From assembly GCA_040954595.2 (NCBI GenBank), contig CM082594.2:8191573-8255572 (forward strand): a stretch of DNA of 64,000 bases, written 5' to 3'. The stretch comes from Balanoglossus misakiensis (lineage: Eukaryota > Animalia > Hemichordata). The notes beneath the pieces are model-generated. The model did no database searches. It worked only from the letters and a program-made list of their open reading frames with translations, and had not been told where the DNA came from. Made by a program: the position numbers and the translations under genes. This document shows, piece after piece, positions 2,559 to 56,853 of the stretch (the first letter of the stretch is position 1; the number at the start of each line of letters is the position of its first letter).

Positions 2559-3997
2559 ATTATGTCACCTGGTAAAGGAACTCCGCAAGGTGCTGAAGAG
2601 ATGCCGTCTGCATCTGCTGAAGAGCCAGCATCGGCCAATGACCATGAGAAGCCAGACGATGGCAGTATGACCAGCAGCAACATTGAGGTTGGGAGCACGG
2701 CTGCCAGTAGTGGCACAGTAACCAATGGCGATATGGTATCTGCCGAAGCATTGGCTGGCCACACAGAACTCAGGAGAAGAAATGTCCCAAAGGGGTAAGT
2801 CAGGCAAGCAGTATTTTAGACACGTAGAACTCAGAAACAAAAGGCAAACAACCACTGCAGTGAATCTGATCTGCAGTGAATTAACTGAATCTGATTAATT
2901 ATTTCATCATCCTACAGATCTGGAGACACTGAAGGAACAGGGCTTGGTAAAGTACAAGTAACATTACGATACAGCTCACAGAGAAATAAGCTGATTGTCG
3001 TAGTACACAAAGCTGAGTAAGTATAATCGCTTAAAGTCACAAGAAACACCATCTGAATAGATTGATCACACATTTCAAGACTTTGAAATAACTGACAAAC
3101 TGGCCCATGATGACCCCATGCATCTTTAACTCGACTTTACCATCTACAGGAATTTGCCAGCTATGAATTCTGACAATACATCTGATCCGTATGTGAGACT
3201 GTATTTGCTGCCAGACAAATCAAATTCTGGACGGAAAAAGACGCGCGTCATCAAAGAAAAACTCAACCCCACGTTTGATGAGACGTAAGTATATGCTGTG
3301 ACAACTTAGTGTACGGTACAACCAGCCCTAGAAGTCTCTAATCTTAAATGATTACAAATTGATCTGAAAACAAGTGCATTTATGTTTCAATGAACAAGAC
3401 AAGTTTTCTTTTGTATTGACCAGGTTTGAGTTTCACTGCAATTCTGATGAGGCACAGCAGCGGGTTATTGACATGGTTGTCAAGAATTCTGCTGGCATGT
3501 TCTCGCAAAGCAAGAATTTCATTGGTCAGGTAGGCGCTTATATTAAACTTTACGTGCATGTCACATGACTCTCACATGGCAGTCAAGTGCTGGTCATGTG
3601 ACATAATCAAGGTTTAATTCATGAAGATTAATGTGGAGGAGTTGACAGCACTTTCCTGCAATATTGATATCGATATGCTGTTTTATAGGATTTTTTGCAT
3701 TAAATTTCGATCTCCCCTGTCATTCTCTCGCAGGCCTTCATTCACCTTTCTGAACTTGATCTGACCAAAGCTTCGACTGTTTGGTAAGTGAACTACAGAC
3801 TTTTGGAGATGGTATTATCAATTAAAAAGTCATTTGGATTCACAGTGAAACGGTATACATGTACCACATACAACATTATTGTGATGAATTTCTTGTGATC
3901 AAATGAAGTTTGGTTTTCTTGTAGGTATGCACTACACAGTGAGGGTTCGTCAGTGGGTGCCTCTACTCCATCATTGTCAAGTGGAACAGCTGTATAG
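2559..3997 (+). CDS. ESYT2: Extended synaptotagmin (E-Syt), 3' part: linker and C-terminal C2 domain; 5' exons lie upstream of the window
   Basis: Exons 2559-2794, 2918-3016, 3150-3284, 3424-3529, 3734-3783, 3925-3997, all AG/GT bounded with consistent phases. Translation [29 protein letters not shown]...[38 protein letters not shown]...[13 protein letters not shown] matches the terminal C2 domain of E-Syt2/3. Stop TAG at 3995-3997. The paralogue number is nominal for an invertebrate. Confidence 0.92.
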
Positions 3998-22200: not shown

Positions 22201-25200
22201 TTTATCCGATGGGCTTGATGAGTTAGCCGATAATCTAATTGTCAGTGTTTTACTGCGCGGTGGGCAATTGAAGGAAATGTTCTTTCCTTTCAACATCGCT
22301 TCGTGTTACTCCATCCACCGACATTCCCAAAATAACCCATCAACGGCGCGAGTCTTTGCTTCCTTTTCCTGAAATTTGGATTTGAGGAATTCACTCTGGA
22401 ATGGAATCGTACAGTAGACATCCTCCCCTACTTCCAAGTCGGTTTTACTTGTTGGTTGTATTTTGGACTCTTGTTCTCATGATTCTCATGATTATGGTCT
22501 TCTCGCTTCAAAATGGTGGTAAGTCTCTCTCCATCTTTCATGGTCTTTGTGTAATATTGTTTGTGGATAACAAGACACTCGTGATTTTAAATGTTTTGTT
22601 TTCCTTCAAATCAGTGGTATACATTTCTAATTAATTGTGAATCTGCCATAAATTTCTCACCTGGGTTTAACATGGCCACTCTGTGGTAAATGCAATTCAA
22701 TTCAGAAATGAACCAAACATCGGTGGCAAAATTCTTTAAAGCTTCGATAAGTTTGAAAAGTGACAGAAGCAGGTGGCCGCAAAACATATATTTAGTATTA
22801 GTAAATTGATCTGATGTGGAATATATGCATGGCCATGTTTATGAATGTTCATAAATCAATGTGTACTTGCGCTAGTAAAATCTCTTAGAAACCGGAAAAG
22901 GTCAGAGGCCATTTTTGGTGGCAGTCTAGAAATTTCCAAATTCAAAATGTTCCATGCGCAATTTCAGTCAAGAATCACATCCTGTGTACATTGCCAAGAC
23001 AATTTATGTTGTATATGATTCAGAAATGGTAACAAAATAAATCTTTATCTCAGATGGAATAACAAGCAGATTTAATCTTATGTGTATTTTGATATTATTA
23101 CAATGTAAACCATCTGAATGCGGATACCAGTGATTGGTTGGTTGTGGAATCTTCTTACAAAGAAATGTGATGGTTTTAAGCAGCTATGGAAATAAAATTA
23201 TTCTTGTTTTATTCACATAGTCTATGGCAGCCATATTGTATTAAATGTGAATGAAATTCAGCATTCATTTAAAAATTAATGAACGTGATGCTTGTAGTCT
23301 CTCTATAAAGGTGAGAATAGGTGAACAGTCTTGCGATAGACTGGTACGTTTGACAGTCACATTCCACACTTGCTTCATTGGACAATGTGGTTCAATGATA
23401 CAATGTATGTTATAAGATGGGATCTCATTTGCCAGAAGGTCAGCTACAGTCTGCTGTGTACATTGATAGTTGACGTCACTGATGAATCACTCTGTGATTC
23501 AGGTGTTGTATAATTAATACTATTAACTCCCATGTGCATAGCCTTTCATTTAGCTAGTTTTATGCTTAGGAATTCTCTCTTGTGTGACTGTGCTGTCTGT
23601 CTCTATGTGTTACTGGCTGTTTGTGTCTTTCTGTCTGTATGGCTGTCTTTGAGTCTGTATATACATGTATCTCTGTTCCTTTCCTCCAGTTGTGGCAAGG
23701 TCAAAAGCTACTGTTTTGTTAGCCCACATATTGGGTGGTGGGGGAAGCAAGGCTGATTTGATACTTTGCAATTACGTTTCAAACTAGGATGTAAGTGTTA
23801 CCGATGGTAACTTGACTAATGAAACATTTACAATGCAATTATGAAAATAGGCCAGAGTAGTCGAAGAATGTTGAAATTCCATTTGAATGTAATTTCTCTA
23901 GAGATTTGGGGTTGACTCGGTGATATAAGAAGATTGCTAGGTTTGTGTTCCATTCATCAAATTCCTCCATCCAGAAAGGTTTTCACAGTATCCTAGGGAT
24001 TTCAAAGAGTTACCTGAAGCCTTTTTGTTGGCTTGATTAATTAGTGAGGATGTCTGCAGAGACAAGAAAAATTCAGATGGTATTGAAATTTGAACTAACA
24101 TCAGTCATGTTGCTGCCCTTTGAAACCATCTACAAATTTCACCTCTTTGTCGCAATGCAGGAAAAATTTTCCAGCATAGGTAAAAGCATGTCTGGAAGGT
24201 GAATATTGCCATGGTTTCACTGCAGTGATTCATGTTGCCCTGATGGTATGTTGTCATGGTAAATTTGTGCTGCCTTGACAACAGAATCTGTTGGCAAAAT
24301 TGCGTAAAACATGCCAAAACTCTCACTCTATTGTGCCTTTCTCACTGGTGTAGCATGAAAGCCTTGTAAAAGTTATTATCAAAGTTTGTTCTAAGACTAG
24401 CTCTTCAATCACAAATAGTTAATTGAATCTAAGTCAGTAGTTTGTCATGTCTTTTAAATCACAACAAATCAAATCAAAATTCCAAGACTTTTACATGTAT
24501 TGTGTGTGTGTGAAACTGGGTTTGAGTATAATGACTTCATCAAGTCTGTCAATTGACAGATGTCTGATGGACGATAAATTAGAAAATATCCTATGTATAA
24601 TACTTCCCTGTATAGTTGCACCTGTTTGATCGACAAGCTTAAGGACTATTCCAGTTACAAGTAATAAAATTGTCAAGCTGCTACTGATTTTCACACAAGG
24701 TCATTTCTCTTCAAGTTCCACTTTGCCACATCTGTCACAGTACAGATTGCCGAGGTATAAAGAATCTTATGACCGTGTTGACATCAAGGAGCTGACATTA
24801 AGGAAATGTCATACCCTTTTATTCTTTTTAACAGATTGCTACTATATGTACAATATATAATACTGTGGATGATCATTGATGGTGACCTGTGTCTCATATT
24901 TTGCAACATTTCATATTTTTGTTTGCAGATATCCTGACAGCTGAGAGAGTAGTTTGCTCCTACTACAATGATCAACATACTAATATCACTGGCATGGATG
25001 CCTTTGAGAAATGGGGTGTCATTGATGAAACTAATGGAACCATTGTCTGCGAGGAAAGTGGAGACATGTTCTGCTTTTCTGCCTGGGAGGAGAATAATGA
25101 AGGAAGAATAGTAGTGGACAAACAGGGTGAGTAGTGTACAGTACACGTGTACTGTTATTGGCTGTTCACTTTCATGTGATCAGTTTGGGCTAAGCTGATT

Positions 25201-36391: not shown

Positions 36392-39300
36392 ATGAAATGC
36401 TTTCTTTCGATTCTAATAATTGTCGGGGTTTTCTTCAGAATAGGTAAGTTTTCTTTTAACTTCTTTGGAATTTGCAAAACGTCACCATGTGATAGAGCTT
36501 GCATTTCTTGCGTTTCTTAAGTTTCTACCAGGGAATATTTCAGTAGCAGAGATTTTTTTGCAAGACAGTGGACAATCGTATCGAAGCATTTGTTTCTCGG
36601 ACAATATTATTTTTGGGCCAATAATTCGAACGTTCGTGTTTTGTCTGGGAAGTATATTCTCGTAACCTCTCCGAAGTCGGACAAAATGCATCGGACCAAA
36701 AGCTTGGCAACTTCAGTTTATTGGAATGGCCATTTTTGAAAAAAAAAGTGCACTCGTCATTTTTAAGAAGTGAGGTTTGTTCTTTTAAAGGGGAATAGGC
36801 AATGCACAGCCAACTTTTTGTTTCCTGATTAGCAGTTCCGTGCACAGACAAAAGGGATATCGTTCATTTCTATAAAAGTGCCCTCGTCAAGAAAAATGGG
36901 TCTTTTAAAACTTCGATGAATTTTGATGATGGGTATCTGTTCTAATGTCGACACTGTATTACACGCGTTTATGGATCAAAATAAAATAAATCGTTTAGGG
37001 TCGGCGGGTCTACAATCCGTAAAGTTGAAAGTGAGACATTTCTTTTAGCCTATTTTATGGTTTCCGATTTTTTTCGTTAAGCAAATAATTTTCACAGTGC
37101 CCTGGGCGTGAATTTCAAACTGCGCTTGCAACTCAGTCGAACTTCATAAAACTGCAGAAGTTTTAGCCAGTGTCTGACATGAAAAAATTATGCTTCCTAA
37201 GACCCGCCTTCAAGTATGCAGATATTGAAACTGCTTGTTCGTGTATCGTTTCTCCCAAACACGCTACCTTCAAAACGTTTGCCGAATTTGGCAGAAAATC
37301 GATGAACCTTGTTATCACTGTCAACCGATCTGTCATACATGTGTCTGACAACTATTTCTTCTGTCAACGATCTGTTGAGCGCAGGTTTACTTAATGTGGA
37401 GTGCATCGATTAGAAAACCATGGCGAAAGTCGTGACTCTCAAACATCCAATAAAATTCACCTGTAGTTTTGTAAAGACAGATTTTGTAACAGATTTCGGT
37501 CAGAACCGAATCATCTACCCACTGTTAATTTTTTCAAAGCTACGTCCTTCCAATTTTACATGCATGTACAACATTACAAGTTAACTATGAAAATGCATGA
37601 ATATATATAAGTTATACAGTGTCTATAAAATAACACCATTGTAGGTGAGGGTCAGCGATGTCCGACAGGTTGGTTGACGCAATATCAGAGATGTTTCCTT
37701 ATTATTGACGACGAGGAAGCCCGGAATTATCATGACGCGGCCAACAGATGCAGACAGTTGGACCAAGGTGCAACGCTGGCCGTCATCGAATCGCCAGAAT
37801 TAAACGTAAGAACGTCACAGAATACTAAGGGACTATGCTTTTGTTTTAGATGTATAAACTAACTGATACTGTTGTCCTACTGAAAACCCACTGAATGAGT
37901 GGTCGGTACATACACTACAGCCTGGGGCATACACATATCAGTTCAGTTTTACAAATGACCAATTGGTCACATGATGGAGGATGCAAATAACATATTTTGT
38001 CTTGATAATCTGATAAGTATCGCCATGCCCGCATTTTATTTGACAGGACTACATCGCTTCTCATATGGTGCAAGGAACTGATGGACATTGGATCGGATTG
38101 GATGACCTGTCTGTAGAGGGCATGTTTGAGTGGGCAGACGGAAAGCACTTGGACGATGATCAAGCGTTAGTACTTTATACGTAGAGATATATCACAGTGA
38201 CATACAACTACGAATTATAATAGCTCTAGATAGACGGAAAAGGCAATCCAGAACGTTTTTTCACCAAATATCGCACTCAGATTATCAACAGATAAGCCAG
38301 ATAAATCGATTGGAAATTGGTGGATATTGGATTACACGGTCTTTGGCTACCAAGGGGCAAAATTCCCGTTATTCAAGTCTCTCTCTCGCTGCCCCTTTCC
38401 ATTAATTTTTATTACCGATATCGGTATGATTGAATTATGTGATTTGATCGTTTATACCGGCATACATGTCAAATCTGCAGGTCCTGGGACGAAGGTGAAC
38501 CAGCCGGTGGTCAGCAAGACTGCGTTCAGTTACGGAGATCGACGAAAAAGTGGACCGCCAAGACCTGCTCTTTAGTGTTACAAGGGCTTGTCTGTCAAAC
38601 AGCTATGAGTAAGCACTGATCATAATCTGATTAAGGTCACGAAGGTAGTATGCTCCTCGAAAATCAAAGTCTGAAACCTTTTCTCGTGATGTGGTAAAGT
38701 CAATTATTCTCAATATACCTTAAAGTCATAGTGGAAGATGTGGTCGGTTTCATACCACTGATTCGGTTTAATTTTGGCCCTTCATTTCTGCTGTCATCGT
38801 CTCTGAGGACTTTCACATATACCAATACAAAGTACAAGACCAAGGGAAGTGATCAATCTAACTGTGCCTACATGGGATCACCATCAAGGTCGTACCAACC
38901 CAATATGTTGATGGAATTTTTTAACCGAATGAATTGAGTTTTTCCCTTTTATTGCATAATTCTCTCATTTCTTCCAGAAATACCGACTGCTTGCGACGAG
39001 GACAACGGGTGGAACTCGGTCAACGACAGATGCATGAAGTACTTTTCGGACAAGAAAACCTGGGATGATGCCCAGTCGTACTGTAGAACTTTGGGTAATG
39101 CAAGGCTGGTGAAGATAACGGGTTTGATTGTACAAGACTACGTCACGGGACGCTCTGGGGATAGTAACATGTGGACTGGACTTTCAGACTTGGTGAGTAG
39201 TTTGGAGATAAAAACAATTCTGTATAATTATTTAGTACTTGTATATGTAATTATTTTCAAGAGATAAAGTATGCTCTATTGTTCCATTTACATGTGTACT

Positions 39301-40806
39301 GAAACACACACCTTTCCACTACTACAATGATGATGTACTAGTAGTATATTCAAGCCAAACGTCAATATTATTCAATGATGAGTAAAACCAAATTGCTCAA
39401 GAAGAGATTTTGTGTCTCGTAATTCTAAACTTAGTCCATTTTCAACCGATTGTCACAGGACGGACAGACTGGCGAGTATGCTTGGATGGATAAAACTACA
39501 CCGAAATATGTCAACTGGCTTGCGGGTCAGCCTAGTAATAGGTAAGTGTGACCAACAACGTGATCATGATGACTAACAGGTTGCTCACCAAAAATGCAAC
39601 GTTGACATTTTCACCGTGCATTATCACGAGGACATCCCTAGGTCCCTGCAGACCACATTGCAAAGCGATTGGACCAGAGGTCTGAGAAATATGATTTTTG
39701 GCCAAAAATGGGGGAAATGTGCTATAATATCAAAGGGAGGGCAATTACAAGACACATAAGAAGCTGGTATATCAATACTATTGCTTTTGGGGGCACTGTT
39801 TTACAACTTACACACATGTTGCATTTTGTAGCAATGCAGGTGGAAATTGCGTGGAAGTAAGGGCCTCTAGTAACGGACAGTGGAGCACCCAGGCATGTAC
39901 TGCAACCAATGCATTTATATGCGACAAGCCAGAAGGTAAGTCAACTCATTTCTAACATGTACAGAATTCAAATCTCTGGAACAACTCAGCTCGACACAAA
40001 CAGCAAATTAGTGATGCGGAAGAAATCATGACCAAAAACACAAATAGTATAGCCGTTCATGTTATCCTTGGGTCAAATCAACAACACATAACTGTTAGCG
40101 AACAGAACTGAAATGAATGACAACTGGGTTTTATCACAGGCAAGTGTGCACCTGGATGGATAATCAACAGAGGATCGTGTTATCAGTTAAACACGGCAAT
40201 CCCAGCGGCCTGGTCTGAGGCTAAACACATGTGTGACGCACAAGGAGGTCACCTGGTCACCATTGATAAGTAGGTATTTCACCTTTTTTTCGTTGAAAAC
40301 TCGTTACAAATGCAAGTGTATTGTCCTTGAGTGGTGACAGTACAGTACAGTGAAATCACGCAGCACCTAGTAATTATTCTTCTGTTTTTCTCTTTCAGCC
40401 GAATAGAAAACGATTTCCTGGTGAGCCAATTCACTGCAATGAATCTCGCTCATGTAACGGACATGTGGATGGGAATATCAGGTAGTTCATTCTTTTTTTC
40501 TCTCAAACAAAATCCCTGAAGCGATGCTTAGTGGCAAAAATGTCACCTTAGACAAAATTCGTAGCGGTTTTTGAATATCAATGTTAACATTGTTTGCAGA
40601 TAGAAACACAGATGGTAATTTCCTCTGGTCAGATGGTACCCAGACTGTCGGATTCACCAACTGGAATATTGGCCAACCGGAGAACAGGCTTGATGAAGCT
40701 GACTGTGGAGCATTGTATGCGGGTAGGTATTATTCACCACGACCACCACTACCACCACCACCACCACCACCACCACCACCACCACCACCACCACCACCAC
40801 CATCTA

Positions 40807-40891
<85 letters not shown>

Positions 40892-43800
40892 GTCATCATC
40901 ATCATCATACACACTTTTTTCTCATTTCAGCCTCATTACTGCTGTAACGTTCCTGTCGTCTAACCTAGGATACATCTCTGCCGTCAACCCTACAGTACAT
41001 CTCGGCCTTCAACCCTGTAATACATCTATGCTGTCAACCCTGCAGTACATACATGTAGCTGCCGTCAACCCTGCAATACTTCTCTGCCGTCAACCCTGGA
41101 CTATGTATCAGTTGTAAATCCTACAACCCTGGAACAATGTTCACTTTGTATTATTTTAGTCTGAATTTATGAATTCTTCTGCATTTCAATAAAGTGTAAA
41201 TAATTTTATTTTACGCAATAAAGGTTTATTTTCAAAAGTCAAAAAAAAGTCATCATCATCATCATCATCATCATGTAAAGTACCATATTTGCCAAGGATT
41301 TACTTATCATCTTCATTACATCTATTTTCGGCAGTAGTTCACATTACAAGTACATGTTGATTGCTGAGTGTGTTTGACGAACGATTATTTTGATATTGTT
41401 GTTTTTTTCTTGCCATTTACCACAGCCGGTTACCTGGGTCCAAAGACATGGCGAGACGATGGCCGTTGTGGTCCAAATTACCTCCAAGATGACGGGGTAA
41501 CTCCGGGAGAATGCAACCCTGACAAGTTATGGCCTTGTTGTTCCAAATATGGTTGGTGTGGCAACACAGACAGCCACTGTAACTGTCCCGAATGCATCGA
41601 TTTTGCAAAGGCATATGGTAAGTTTAGTTCGGTGCTTTTAATTTAAGATGTTGACATGACAAGATGCCATGCAAGAATTTTCAAAATAGAGAACTCTTAG
41701 ATGAAAGCAATAATTAAACGACACGGCATTACAGTGGTGTGCTATGCAGGTTGTATAGTTTCATGTCTCATCAAATGTGACTTCTTATTAATGTCTACTT
41801 ATTATTAATCGCCGATTTTTAAGACTAGACTACTTGGATCAATATTTCAGATCGTTACGACTAGTTTTATATTCTACACAACTACCCAGATATGACCCTT
41901 TCTCTTCTTCCACCACCATTACGTCAACTTCGGCCAATAATCGGATAAATAAATACAATTTACATTTTAGTCTCAGAAATCATTATTTTTGTGTTACTGA
42001 CAGATCTTGGAGACTGGAATACCAGACCTTGCATCAACAACTACCCATTCATTTGCGAAATTAACGCAGGTAAGATGAAAGGTTTACGAGTTAAAAGCGA
42101 TCCAGCTACGCGCAGCACGCATGCTCAGTAAATGATGCTATACCACTACATGTATTTACATGTGTCTATTGTTCTACCCATGCCACTGACTTACCTTAGT
42201 AGGTATGGAGTACATGTAATAACTGTTGACAACCAGAGAATCGAAATCCGCTCTGACACAGGAAAACAAACCATCACAAACAAAACAAAACAAGACATAT
42301 CTCCAGAACAAGATGACACTGAAAATTACGTTTCCAATGCAACACGTGGCTTACCAGTGCGAAGACCTTCATTTCCAGGGAAGCTGTTTCTCTGATCCAT
42401 CAATGATCCAGTGGCGCTCCCATGATTTCTGGCAAGGTTCAACTGCTTCATAAACATGCGCGTTTGAAGACTTCCTTGATACAAGTTTGCCTCAGTTTTC
42501 CAGTCAGTCAAGACAGTTAGAGTTCCGGTCGTGTAGACGCACGTAGCGCGACGTGGCGAGGTCTCTTGCTTCCAGTGCTCGAATAAAATGACGCGAGCAT
42601 GCTCCGAATGGAAATCTGCGAACATCTGGTCACTTGTGTTCAGCCAATGAGAAACCGTTCCTGAAATTCAAATTAACATTATTCCTTCATTGTATCATGC
42701 ATCATTAACCATTTCTGTTTTGTCATCTTTGTATAGACCAGCCTGTGGTACCTTTATCTCCGGATGTCGGTAAGTAGAATTGCTTTATAAAAAATCTGTT
42801 GATGATATTTTGGCTTTAGAAATCACATAAATGTACCGTATCACTTCTTTTCTCTTATGTGCACTTTATATACAGGTCTTGGTTACTGTGATGACATGTG
42901 GGTTCTGCATGGAGACTATTGTTACTTCTTTGAGGGCAATTCTCCACAGAATTTCCACGATGCCAGCACCGCCTGCAGGGGTATGGGCGGAGAGCTGACC
43001 AGTATTTTGACCGATGTTGAACAGAGTTTCATCGGCGGTAAGTCACGAATACATAACTGAATAGACAGCTGTACCAACCATACCACAGAGTTGCTTTGTT
43101 TGGAATTATTAAGATACCAGTTTTCGATTTTTGGTGGTAATCCATGGAAATGTGAATCATAGTGGGGTACAGCAAACATCCCTACATTTGTTGGCACACA
43201 AACTTACCGCGTGCACATCATCTATTTGAAGGTCGCCTGCGGTACTTCAACACTCAGCCATGGATTGGTCTTCACGATCATGGCAAAGGAGGTAACGTTG
43301 TGTGGATGGATGGATCACGGGTAAGGCTCTAAGACTCTCTTATTCAACAGTTTGCACTGTGACTCCTAATTTAATATTAAGAGAGAATAATAGGGGGTTG
43401 TAAGTCAGCAAATTAAGGTCAAACTAACGAGTTCCGTTGAACCAAGCCTACTTATTTGTTTGTCTTTTTCACAGTTGGAATTCACGTACTGGGCTCGAGG
43501 TAATCCGGACTACACTGAAGTTGAAGAACACTGCGTTCAAATCTACAGTGACGAGAGCGTCTTGGGGAAATGGAATGATCGAGACTGCAATGAGTTATTG
43601 GGTTACATTTGTAAAAAGCGTAAAAGTAAGTCACTCTGTCAATCGGTGTGATTTGGAAAATGTTTGCTTTTATCGTTTTATTTTGATGTCGTAGAGGAAA
43701 GCGCGTTGATAAAATTAATCACAATTGTGTTCTTTCTTCTTGCCAACAGATATCGATGCTGCGGCAATCAAAGACAGTCGTAAGTGATCTTCTATATTAA

Positions 43801-44137
43801 TGATCCAATTGAATCTCACCACATACAAAAAGACTGGTGGATAGAATTTAATTTGAATTCATTCAAACGTACTCGTTTCATTCTTAATGTAACGGACGAT
43901 TTCATTTTGGTCACTATTTCAGCTAGCGTAAGTGTCGGCGGCGTGGTTGCAATCGTCATCGTTATGTTACTCTGCATGGTTGGCGTTTCCGTCTTAGTCT
44001 ACTGCTGGGCTAGCGGTCGAATATCATCCGCATCTTTTCCGAAAGCACAGAATTTCGCTGGATTTTCGAATGACACATACACCACCAAGGAGAATCCGGT
44101 TGAAGTAAACGATGTAGAGGCCAACAAAGGTTTATAG
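36392..44137 (+). CDS. Type I membrane receptor with four C-type lectin domains (mannose-receptor-like, about 711 aa) carrying an inserted hevein-type chitin-binding module
   Basis: 18 exons: 36392-36443 (signal peptide MKCFLSILIIVGVFFRIG), 37645-37805, 38047-38165, 38481-38608, 38978-39192, 39459-39541, 39832-39935, 40140-40269, 40399-40481, 40600-40722, 41426-41617, 42004-42069, 42737-42769, 42876-43037, 43232-43320, 43475-43625, 43750-43779, 43923-44137. Total 2136 nt, in frame. CTLD hallmarks WIGL/WTGL/WMGI/WIGL and conserved Cys; TM VGGVVAIVIVMLLCMVGVSVLVY; tail motif FSNDTY. Confidence 0.88.
40735..40907. repeat. Compound trinucleotide microsatellite (CCA)n(CAT)n
   Basis: Directly visible; starts about 12 nt after the exon-10 donor of the lectin gene. 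Confidence 0.97.
40971..41101. repeat. Degenerate 25-bp minisatellite, about 5 copies
   Basis: Units such as tacatctctgccgtcaaccctacag / tacatctcggccttcaaccctgtaa / tacatctatgctgtcaaccctgcag. Confidence 0.85.
41250..41274. repeat. Short (CAT)n microsatellite
   Basis: About 8 CAT units in the same intron. Confidence 0.85.
41426..41617 (+). CDS. Exon 11 of the lectin gene: hevein/ChtBD1-type chitin-binding module (symmetric phase 1-1 exon)
   Basis: Encodes AGYLGPKTWRDDGRCGPNYLQDDGVTPGECNPDKLWPCCSKYGWCGNTDSHCNCPECIDFAKAY: 8 Cys and the hevein CCSxxGWCG signature. Acceptor ...ttaccacag, donor gtaagt. Confidence 0.85.

Positions 44138-46354: not shown

Positions 46355-56853
<10,499 letters not shown>

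What the first reader, a model, noticed from the sequence alone, without database searches (positions are those of the whole stretch)
40600..42069. Hevein-type chitin-binding module inserted inside a C-type lectin domain as a skippable symmetric exon
Seen: CTLD3 reads ...NWNIGQPENRLDEADCGALYA | exon 41426-41617 | DLGDWNTRPCINNYPFICE. The 64-aa, 8-Cys module (WRDDGRCG...CCSKYGWCGNTDSHCNCPECIDF) sits between the strand carrying DCG and the WNT strand, so between the two Cys of the CTLD inner disulfide and next to the canonical Ca2+/sugar site 2. The exon is 192 nt and phase 1-1; skipping it restores an ordinary CTLD (CGALYADLGDWNTRPC). The other three CTLDs have no intron at this position. Established: hevein domains bind GlcNAc oligomers through the Ser and aromatic residues of CCSxxGWCG, and such modules normally occur in tandem with other domains rather than inside them. 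Inference: exon shuffling grafted a Ca-independent chitin sensor into the loop of a lectin domain, possibly switchable by alternative splicing, in an endocytic pattern-recognition receptor.
Basis: partly seen in the sequence, partly recalled or inferred. Interest (0 to 1): 0.85.

Follow-up and report, generated by a model that had tools for sequence, protein, structure and literature searches.

The report
Chitin hook nested in lectin domain
A mannose-receptor-like surface protein gene, likely from an acorn worm, carries a 64-residue cysteine-rich module on its own exon in the middle of one lectin domain; the module likely binds chitin and is likely a fixed part of the receptor rather than the splicing switch first proposed.

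Summary
Observation confirmed. Exon 41426-41617 (192 nt, phase 1-1, AG/GT) encodes an 8-Cys module inside CTLD3 of an 18-exon, 711-aa receptor gene (signal peptide, 4 C-type lectin domains, TM, FxNxxY tail). The same nested module stands in database gene models of Ptychodera flava and Glandiceps talaboti, and is absent from the matching domain of 8 homologues (3 Glandiceps paralogues, starfish, feather star, one unnamed protein). A tree without the insert makes the three carriers one clade (100/99): one old gain in acorn worms. The closest solved relative is the hevein-like chitin-binding domain of amphioxus BbtPGRP3 (4Z8I, E 9e-17); all 8 Cys and the four binding positions (Ser, Tyr for Trp, Trp, His) are kept. 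AlphaFold closes the lectin fold around the insert; the insert itself was not modelled with confidence. The host domain lacks a full calcium site, so a switch between two sugar sites is doubtful. Skipping could not be tested on RNA; indirect evidence leans to constant inclusion. Module-beside-lectin proteins are common in lancelets and acorn worms; the nested form was seen in 2 of 162 module-bearing database proteins and not in the papers searched. New variant of a known kind.

The parts
36392..44137 (+). Whole gene, start codon to stop codon: 18 coding exons, 711 aa; signal peptide, four CTLDs, TM helix, short tail
   Evidence: exon model with all AG/GT introns and one open frame; 70% identical end to end to P. 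flava XP_070537334.1
36392..36443 (+). Exon 1, predicted signal peptide
   Evidence: hydrophobic N-terminus aligning with the orthologue's start; no dedicated predictor run
40140..40269 (+). Exon 8, first part of CTLD3
40399..40481 (+). Exon 9, CTLD3 helix 2 and WxG strand
40600..40722 (+). Exon 10, CTLD3 long loop (QPE at 40674-40682) and strand beta3 with Cys394 (40704-40706); ends in phase 1
40723..41425 (+). Intron 10 (703 nt, longest intron after intron 1) with CAC, CAT and TCA microsatellites and a 25-nt minisatellite
41426..41617 (+). Exon 11, the inserted exon: 192 nt, phase 1-1, 64 codons (short linker, 8-Cys hevein-like module, short linker)
41449..41604 (+). Core of the BbtPGRP3-type hevein-like module (Trp408-Phe459); predicted sugar-binding Ser 41542-41544, Tyr 41548-41550, Trp 41554-41556, His 41575-41577
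   Evidence: 31 of 57 aligned positions identical to PDB 4Z8I (counted); binding residues from PMC4610682; coordinates
41618..42003 (+). Intron 11 (386 nt)
42004..42069 (+). Exon 12, CTLD3 strands beta4 (WNT at 42015-42023) and beta5, with Cys473 (42030-42032)
42876..43625 (+). Exons 14-16, CTLD4: NPD (43502-43510), Glu, WND (43571-43579); the most complete calcium site of the four domains
43923..44137 (+). Exon 18: predicted TM helix (about 43943-43999) and cytoplasmic FSNDTY (44063-44080), an FxNxxY-type motif
   Evidence: hydropathy 3.2 over 19 residues from aa 648; motif in 8 of 11 related tails including this one, plus one FxNxxF

Best explanation
The gene encodes a four-lectin-domain membrane receptor whose third lectin domain carries a nested hevein-like module; the lectin domain is predicted to fold normally and hold the module out on its beta3-beta4 hairpin, where it likely grips chitin or other GlcNAc polymers and the receptor likely internalises them, with the exon likely included in most messages. 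Shown: exon, frame, position, conservation, single origin on the tree, kept binding residues. Predicted: the lectin fold closing around the insert. Inferred: chitin binding (from the amphioxus homologue), uptake (from the tail motif), constant inclusion, and insertion into a pre-existing phase-1 intron of a lectin domain that already lacked a full calcium site.
For: Module: E 8.6e-17 to BbtPGRP3 CBD, 4Z8I. In that protein the domain binds chitin beads, W53A/W55A abolishes binding, and it raises activity on S. aureus peptidoglycan about five-fold (PMC4610682). All three nested copies keep Ser, Tyr, Trp, His, against 109 of 319 related modules with the same core spacing. The exon is the most conserved of 18 against Glandiceps (69%) and joint fourth against Ptychodera (80%). 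Host: AlphaFold with 13 sequences gives pLDDT 75-94 per ten-residue block for the lectin parts on both sides of the insert and Z about 20, rmsd 1.4-1.9 A over 124-133 residues to solved CTLDs. Origin: absent from 8 of 8 insert-free homologues examined; carriers form one clade, 100/99; the module occurs beside kringle, CUB and CTLD domains in Saccoglossus, Glandiceps and Branchiostoma proteins, so a donor was at hand. Inclusion: acceptor 16/20 pyrimidines, donor 8/9 consensus; no skipped isoform in the collection. Uptake: FxNxxY tail like the FENTLY motif of the mannose receptor.
Against: No binding or expression data for this protein. The insert (model residues 115-176) has pLDDT under 50, so its fold and its position against the lectin domain are not modelled. 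Pfam PF00187 scores below its cut-off. Position Trp53 of the tested homologue is Tyr here. High identity is partly owed to 8 Cys and many Gly. The ancestral intron could not be seen because no genomic DNA of insert-free homologues was available. The nested copies share QPx and WNT where insert-free homologues do not, and P. flava has 3 of the 5 calcium ligands, so some calcium or sugar function of the host is not excluded. 3 of 11 related tails have no FxNxx[YF] motif.
Confidence: 0.55

Rival explanations
1. Splicing switch: the exon is a cassette, and tissues or immune states make receptors with and without the chitin-binding module.
For: 192 nt, phase 1-1; skipping keeps the frame and leaves a Cys+9+Trp loop, the same length as in CTLD1 of this protein. 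Symmetric class 1-1 modules can be lost by exon skipping (PMC3927616). Strong conservation is also typical of regulated cassette exons (own knowledge).
Against: Splice sites not weak; P. flava and G. talaboti models include it, carry no 'isoform X' suffix and sit in one-member clusters, while another cluster does show X1-X3 isoforms; region searches found no shorter form; 6 of 16 internal exons are symmetric too; the skipped loop is 2 residues shorter than in 7 of 8 insert-free homologues. These negatives rest on gene annotation depth, not on reads.
Confidence: 0.2
2. The module binds GlcNAc on the animal's own or dietary material (glycoproteins, mucus, chitinous food particles), so the receptor serves clearance or feeding uptake rather than microbial sensing.
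For: The mannose receptor also clears endogenous ligands (PMC8551360 passage); nothing in the window ties the gene to immunity; neighbours are a C2-domain gene, a TGF-beta-type receptor-like gene and an ABC transporter.
Against: The one tested homologue sits in an antimicrobial peptidoglycan-recognition protein and acts on bacterial wall.
Confidence: 0.15
3. Composite site: the host lectin domain keeps a partial calcium site and works together with the nested module as one extended binding surface for long GlcNAc polymers or peptidoglycan.
For: All 3 carriers have QPx and WNT; none of 7 parsed insert-free homologues has Asn after the Trp. The beta3-beta4 hairpin lies beside site 2 in CTLDs (own knowledge, e.g. 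selectins).
Against: Asp206 is Thr in all three, the Glu193 position is Ala, Asn or Pro; shared residues may be simple inheritance in a three-member clade; no confident model of the contact.
Confidence: 0.08
4. The exon is not part of this gene's message (separate nested gene or prediction artefact).
For: No RNA reads were laid on this locus.
Against: Same place and frame in annotated proteins of two acorn-worm families; no start, stop or second exon of another gene nearby; it is the only strong module hit in the window.
Confidence: 0.02

Closest known systems
Chitin-binding domain of amphioxus BbtPGRP3 (PDB 4Z8I/4ZXM; PMC4610682)
   Same: Same 8-Cys module, 31 of 57 aligned positions identical; Ser51, Trp55, His62 kept, Trp53 is Tyr.
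   Different: There it is an N-terminal domain linked in tandem to a secreted amidase; here it interrupts a lectin domain of a membrane receptor.
Plant and fungal hevein / Pfam PF00187 Chitin_bind_1 (hevein 1HEV, pokeweed lectin-C 1ULK)
   Same: CCSxxGWCG core with Ser and two aromatics; weak sequence hits (E 1.4e-6 to 0.014).
   Different: Longer N-terminal loop, His at the third aromatic position, below the Pfam cut-off.
Vertebrate mannose-receptor family (MRC1, MRC2/Endo180, PLA2R, DEC-205)
   Same: Type I membrane protein with tandem CTLDs and an FxNxxY tail; best PDB sequence hits are this family.
   Different: No cysteine-rich ricin-type or FN2 domain, four CTLDs, nested module.
Ambulacrarian 'macrophage mannose receptor 1-like' proteins (Patiria XP_038077198.1, Asterias XP_033624558.1, Antedon XP_071940974.1, Glandiceps XP_077993133.1, XP_077993134.1, XP_077993987.1)
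   Same: Collinear CTLD1-4, same non-canonical CTLD3.
   Different: No insert; much longer ectodomains; CTLD4 keeps EPN/WND.
FN2 modules inserted in MMP2/MMP9 (class 1-1 insertion)
   Same: Symmetric phase-1 module exon placed internally in a recipient gene (PMC3927616 passage); that the FN2 repeats interrupt the catalytic domain itself is recalled.
   Different: Different module and host; there a substrate-binding aid for a protease, here a likely ligand-binding replacement in a receptor.
Lancelet and acorn-worm mosaic proteins with the module beside CTLDs (e.g. Glandiceps XP_077981855.1, Saccoglossus XP_002731555.2, Branchiostoma XP_066266304.1)
   Same: Both domain types in one chain; 11 such proteins among 162.
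   Different: The module lies between or outside whole CTLDs, not inside one.

Membership tests
BbtPGRP3-type hevein-like chitin-binding domain | Eight Cys at the positions of C27, C41, C49, C50, C56, C63, C65, C68 | tested here: met
   all eight align without shift (numbering from PMC4610682)
BbtPGRP3-type hevein-like chitin-binding domain | Binding residues Ser51, aromatic 53, aromatic 55, His62 | tested here: met
   Ser, Tyr, Trp, His in the window, P. flava and G. talaboti
BbtPGRP3-type hevein-like chitin-binding domain | Hevein-like fold (three-stranded sheet, helix, four disulfides) | tested here: inconclusive
   insert unresolved in my model, pLDDT under 50; the Atlas model's insert aligns to Chitin_bind_1 clusters only at TM 0.36-0.40 by a 112-residue query
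BbtPGRP3-type hevein-like chitin-binding domain | Binds chitin | not testable with these tools
   shown only for the amphioxus homologue
Pfam PF00187 Chitin_bind_1 (hevein) | Score at or above the gathering cut-off of 27.8 bits | tested here: not met
   24.0 bits, E 4.8e-5; 22.6 and 21.7 bits for the orthologues. Works like hevein; not filed as a Pfam member
C-type lectin-like domain (CTLD3) | CTLD fold with both conserved disulfides | tested here: met
   P. flava orthologue model: Z 20.4, rmsd 1.4-1.9 A to solved CTLDs with the insert trimmed; Cys present in the window; disulfide bonding itself not measured
Calcium-dependent C-type lectin (CTLD3) | Five site-2 ligands (Glu/Gln185, Asn/Asp187, Glu193, Asn205, Asp206) | tested here: not met
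   window Q, E, A, N, T; Glandiceps Q, Q, P, N, T; P. flava Q, D, N, N, T, which passes a lenient 3-of-5 rule
Vertebrate mannose receptor family | N-terminal cysteine-rich (ricin-type) and FN2 domains before the CTLDs | tested here: not met
   Pfam finds neither in P0006 or P0008; CTLD1 follows the signal peptide in the window model
Vertebrate mannose receptor family | Tandem CTLDs, one TM helix, FxNxxY-type tail motif | tested here: met
Class 1-1 shuffled module | Module exon flanked by phase-1 introns | tested here: met
Class 1-1 shuffled module | Inserted into a pre-existing phase-1 intron of the recipient | not testable with these tools
Alternatively spliced cassette exon | Both included and skipped transcripts exist | tested here: inconclusive
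   only indirect tests: no skipped protein in the collection; no reads could be laid

The most novel reading that the evidence does not exclude
Acorn worms rebuilt a calcium-dead lectin domain into a new kind of sugar reader by grafting a chitin/peptidoglycan-binding module onto the hairpin beside its old sugar site, forming one composite surface, and switch that graft in or out by splicing: a natural domain-in-domain specificity switch in an innate uptake receptor.
Probability: 0.1. Interest if true: 0.8.

Novelty: new variant of a known kind. Interest (0 to 1): 0.5.

Why it matters
It is a clean, polarised case of one carbohydrate-binding module inserted inside another: present in two acorn-worm families, absent from sister paralogues and echinoderm homologues, with exon borders intact. 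That makes testable how a receptor changes ligand by exon shuffling (compare CTLD3 with and without the exon, and with the echinoderm domain), and it points to a candidate chitin or peptidoglycan uptake receptor in an invertebrate deuterostome. It also shows that the CTLD beta3-beta4 hairpin is predicted to tolerate a whole domain. It does not overturn a rule: class 1-1 module insertion is established, and both parts are known.

Tried and rejected
No RNA holder was listed for window 39400-43700, so no reads were laid; this is no evidence on expression. No whole genome is held, so paralogues in this genome were not counted. Folding the P. flava CTLD3 without an alignment failed (pLDDT 36.7). 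Two tool alignments (A1, A2) put the tails of insert-free domains onto the module and were discarded; A3 was chosen after trying row sets in scripts because it places the gap as one block, so the fold was given an alignment that already assumes the insertion. The metagenome scan (21 loci from 57 pattern matches) gave mostly long intron-free frames and could not settle the module's usual exon phase; none of the 21 showed a CTLD hit. P0088 (B. belcheri KAI8499823.1) has a module followed by a CTLD tail, but it is a repeated tail-plus-module fragment with no CTLD front half, so not nested. No second module exon and no further CTLD exons lie in the window. ESM Atlas feature searches stayed under 0.9. 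The fold searches listed only CTLDs among the rows shown, which says nothing on the unmodelled insert. Earlier findings by sequence and by words returned nothing. Horizontal transfer from plants, proposed for the amphioxus module in PMC4610682, was not tested and is not needed for this insertion, since the module is present in other acorn-worm genes.
Full report
Observation. The stretch 41426-41617 is bounded by a pyrimidine-rich AG and a GTAAGT donor. [quoted passage not shown] One donor (exon 3) has two in-frame candidates; 38165 fits the orthologue without a gap. Exon 11 is 192 nt, phase 1-1, and lies between Cys394 and Cys473, the inner-disulfide pair of CTLD3. Omitting it leaves an open 647-aa frame.

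Orthologues. A search with the exon found 16 proteins among 19 candidates, two of them with the same nested layout: P. flava XP_070537334.1 (712 aa, 70% identical end to end) and G. talaboti XP_077993991.1 (1983 aa, 52% over 642 columns). These species belong to two families of acorn worms, and the window is likely from a ptychoderid relative (inference from identity). A search with the Glandiceps CTLD3 region gave 12 proteins among 200 candidates; eight with collinear CTLD1-4 lack the insert: three Glandiceps paralogues on a contig of the same length, two Patiria, one Asterias, one Antedon and one unnamed protein. A tree of CTLD1-4 from these 11 rows with the insert removed puts the three carriers on one branch (100/99; 1 change; 3 of 500 shuffles as low), next to one Glandiceps paralogue (92/95, not starred); it is midpoint-rooted and two rows have long branches. 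The simplest reading is one gain in acorn worms after the gene had duplicated. No Saccoglossus orthologue turned up, which these word-based searches cannot turn into an absence.

The module. The best solved relative is the chitin-binding domain of amphioxus BbtPGRP3 (4Z8I, E 8.6e-17; 31 of 57 positions identical by my count), far ahead of plant hevein lectins (E 1.4e-6 and weaker). PMC4610682 (abstract, introduction, results and part of the methods read; 3 of 5 parts) describes it as hevein-like with four disulfides, names Ser51, Trp53, Trp55 and His62 as the binding residues, shows binding to chitin beads in Tris/NaCl buffer with no calcium listed, loss of binding in W53A/W55A, and about five-fold higher activity on S. 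aureus peptidoglycan that depends on this site. The window module keeps all eight Cys and has Ser, Tyr, Trp, His; so do both orthologues. Of 469 related modules harvested from fetched proteins, 319 have the same core spacing and 109 of those keep all four positions, so retention in all three nested copies suggests selection on the sugar site. Against this: Pfam PF00187 is hit below its cut-off, and one paper (PMC5297725, passages) calls hevein binding calcium-dependent, which I recall as not the usual view.

The host. AlphaFold on the P. flava domain with 13 sequences gave pLDDT 75-94 per block for residues 1-110 and 89-90 for 181-200, with strands on either side of the insert, and under 50 for 115-176. 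With the weak part trimmed it matches solved CTLDs at Z about 20, rmsd 1.4-1.9 A over 124-133 residues. So the lectin fold is predicted to close around the insert, but the insert's fold and position are not modelled, and the alignment was picked to place the gap properly. Of the five calcium site-2 ligands (numbering from PMC5297725 passage), window CTLD3 has Q, E, A, N, T; the insert-free homologues are further from the consensus (for example MPx with WDT, WST or WDS), while CTLD4 keeps EPN, Glu and WND in the seven long named homologues parsed. CTLD3 therefore had likely lost calcium-dependent sugar binding before the insertion, and the module likely supplied a new site rather than competing with a live one. 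The shared QPx and WNT of the three carriers keep a composite site possible.

Splicing. Not tested on reads (one search listed no run). Indirect results lean to constant inclusion: acceptor 16 of 20 pyrimidines and donor 8 of 9 consensus positions, at the upper end of the 17 introns; one-member clusters without isoform suffix for both orthologues, whereas another cluster shows isoforms X1-X3; no shorter form in region searches; 6 of 16 internal exons are symmetric, so symmetry is ordinary here; the skipped loop (Cys+9+Trp) is two residues short of the Cys+11+Trp in 7 of 8 insert-free homologues. For skipping: a 9-residue loop exists in CTLD1 of the same protein, and symmetric modules are readily lost by skipping (PMC3927616, passages).

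How common is the nesting? HMMER over 1.84 billion representatives found 984 proteins at E 0.001 or better, of which I saw the best 150. Among 162 module-bearing proteins in hand, 13 also had CTLD hits: 11 in tandem, 2 nested, the two orthologues; a motif scan of all 469 modules added only the fragmentary P0088; 14 later cluster members added no nested case. The ten tandem proteins looked up are from Glandiceps, Saccoglossus and Branchiostoma and several combine the module with kringle, CUB or F5/8 domains. One unnamed cluster shows genomic read-through and a differently flanked form that diverge right at the module's ends, with the same residue pattern as the window's phase-1 borders, a protein-level hint that the module is a 1-1 exon elsewhere (no DNA seen). 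The sample is biased to multi-copy proteins. One lead is open: the Atlas structure search aligned 87 residues spanning both lectin and module parts to an unnamed 428-member, mostly mollusc cluster (TM 0.58), more than hevein-only rows (53-66) or CTLD-only rows (44-50). I could not retrieve it; it may be a second nested family.

Literature. Ten searches of the open-access library showed no title or abstract start describing a hevein-like module inside a CTLD; three of them returned no paper at all (ChtBD1 + C-type lectin; hemichordate + C-type lectin + chitin-binding; C-type lectin-like domain + domain insertion). Most listed papers were seen as listings only, subscription journals are largely missing, and no supplements were read. 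The architecture is already in public gene models, unlabelled. PMC8551360 (two passages) gives the FENTLY internalisation motif; an FxNxxY match is in 8 of 11 related tails including the window's, with one FxNxxF, and is lacking in P0020, P0024 and the more distant P0026 (12 tails scanned).

Verdict. Real, conserved and neatly polarised domain-in-domain insertion; chitin or GlcNAc-polymer binding likely; splicing switch unproven and less likely than not. Both parts and the mechanism of class 1-1 insertion are known, the combination appears undescribed. New variant of a known kind, interest 0.5.

Noticed in passing
window 43475-44137: The window gene and the P. flava orthologue end after CTLD4 (711-712 aa), whereas the insert-bearing Glandiceps orthologue has 12 CTLDs and a PAN domain (1983 aa); in both short forms the CTLD4 motif is NPD instead of the EPN of the long homologues. 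A truncation with a possible change of CTLD4 specificity.
   Followed up: partly
ESM Atlas row 1: Unnamed 423-aa cluster (428 members, mostly Mollusca) aligns over 87 residues across both the lectin hairpin and the module (TM 0.58); could be another nested use of the module.
   Followed up: no
   Followed up: partly
P0018, P0020, P0024, P0008: Four Glandiceps paralogues of this receptor lie on contigs of identical length (24148329), likely one cluster; only one carries the insert.
   Followed up: partly
P0037 and P0182 (Glandiceps): Proteins with four CTLDs flanked by 4 or followed by 6 tandem copies of the same module: a second, independent lectin-plus-module design in acorn worms.
   Followed up: partly
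P0088 (Branchiostoma belcheri KAI8499823.1): Repeated unit of CTLD tail plus module without a CTLD front half; probably an annotation fragment.
   Followed up: partly
window 3130-3285, 24886-25131, 47730-54236: Neighbouring genes: a C2-domain exon (+), an activin/TGF-beta receptor-like ectodomain exon (+, weak Pfam hit E 0.018), and an ABC transporter on the minus strand. No link to the lectin gene seen.
   Followed up: no
L006, L007, L012, L013: The module sits deep in long (over 700 aa) intron-free frames on AT-rich metagenome contigs (GC 20-30%), context not examined.
   Followed up: no
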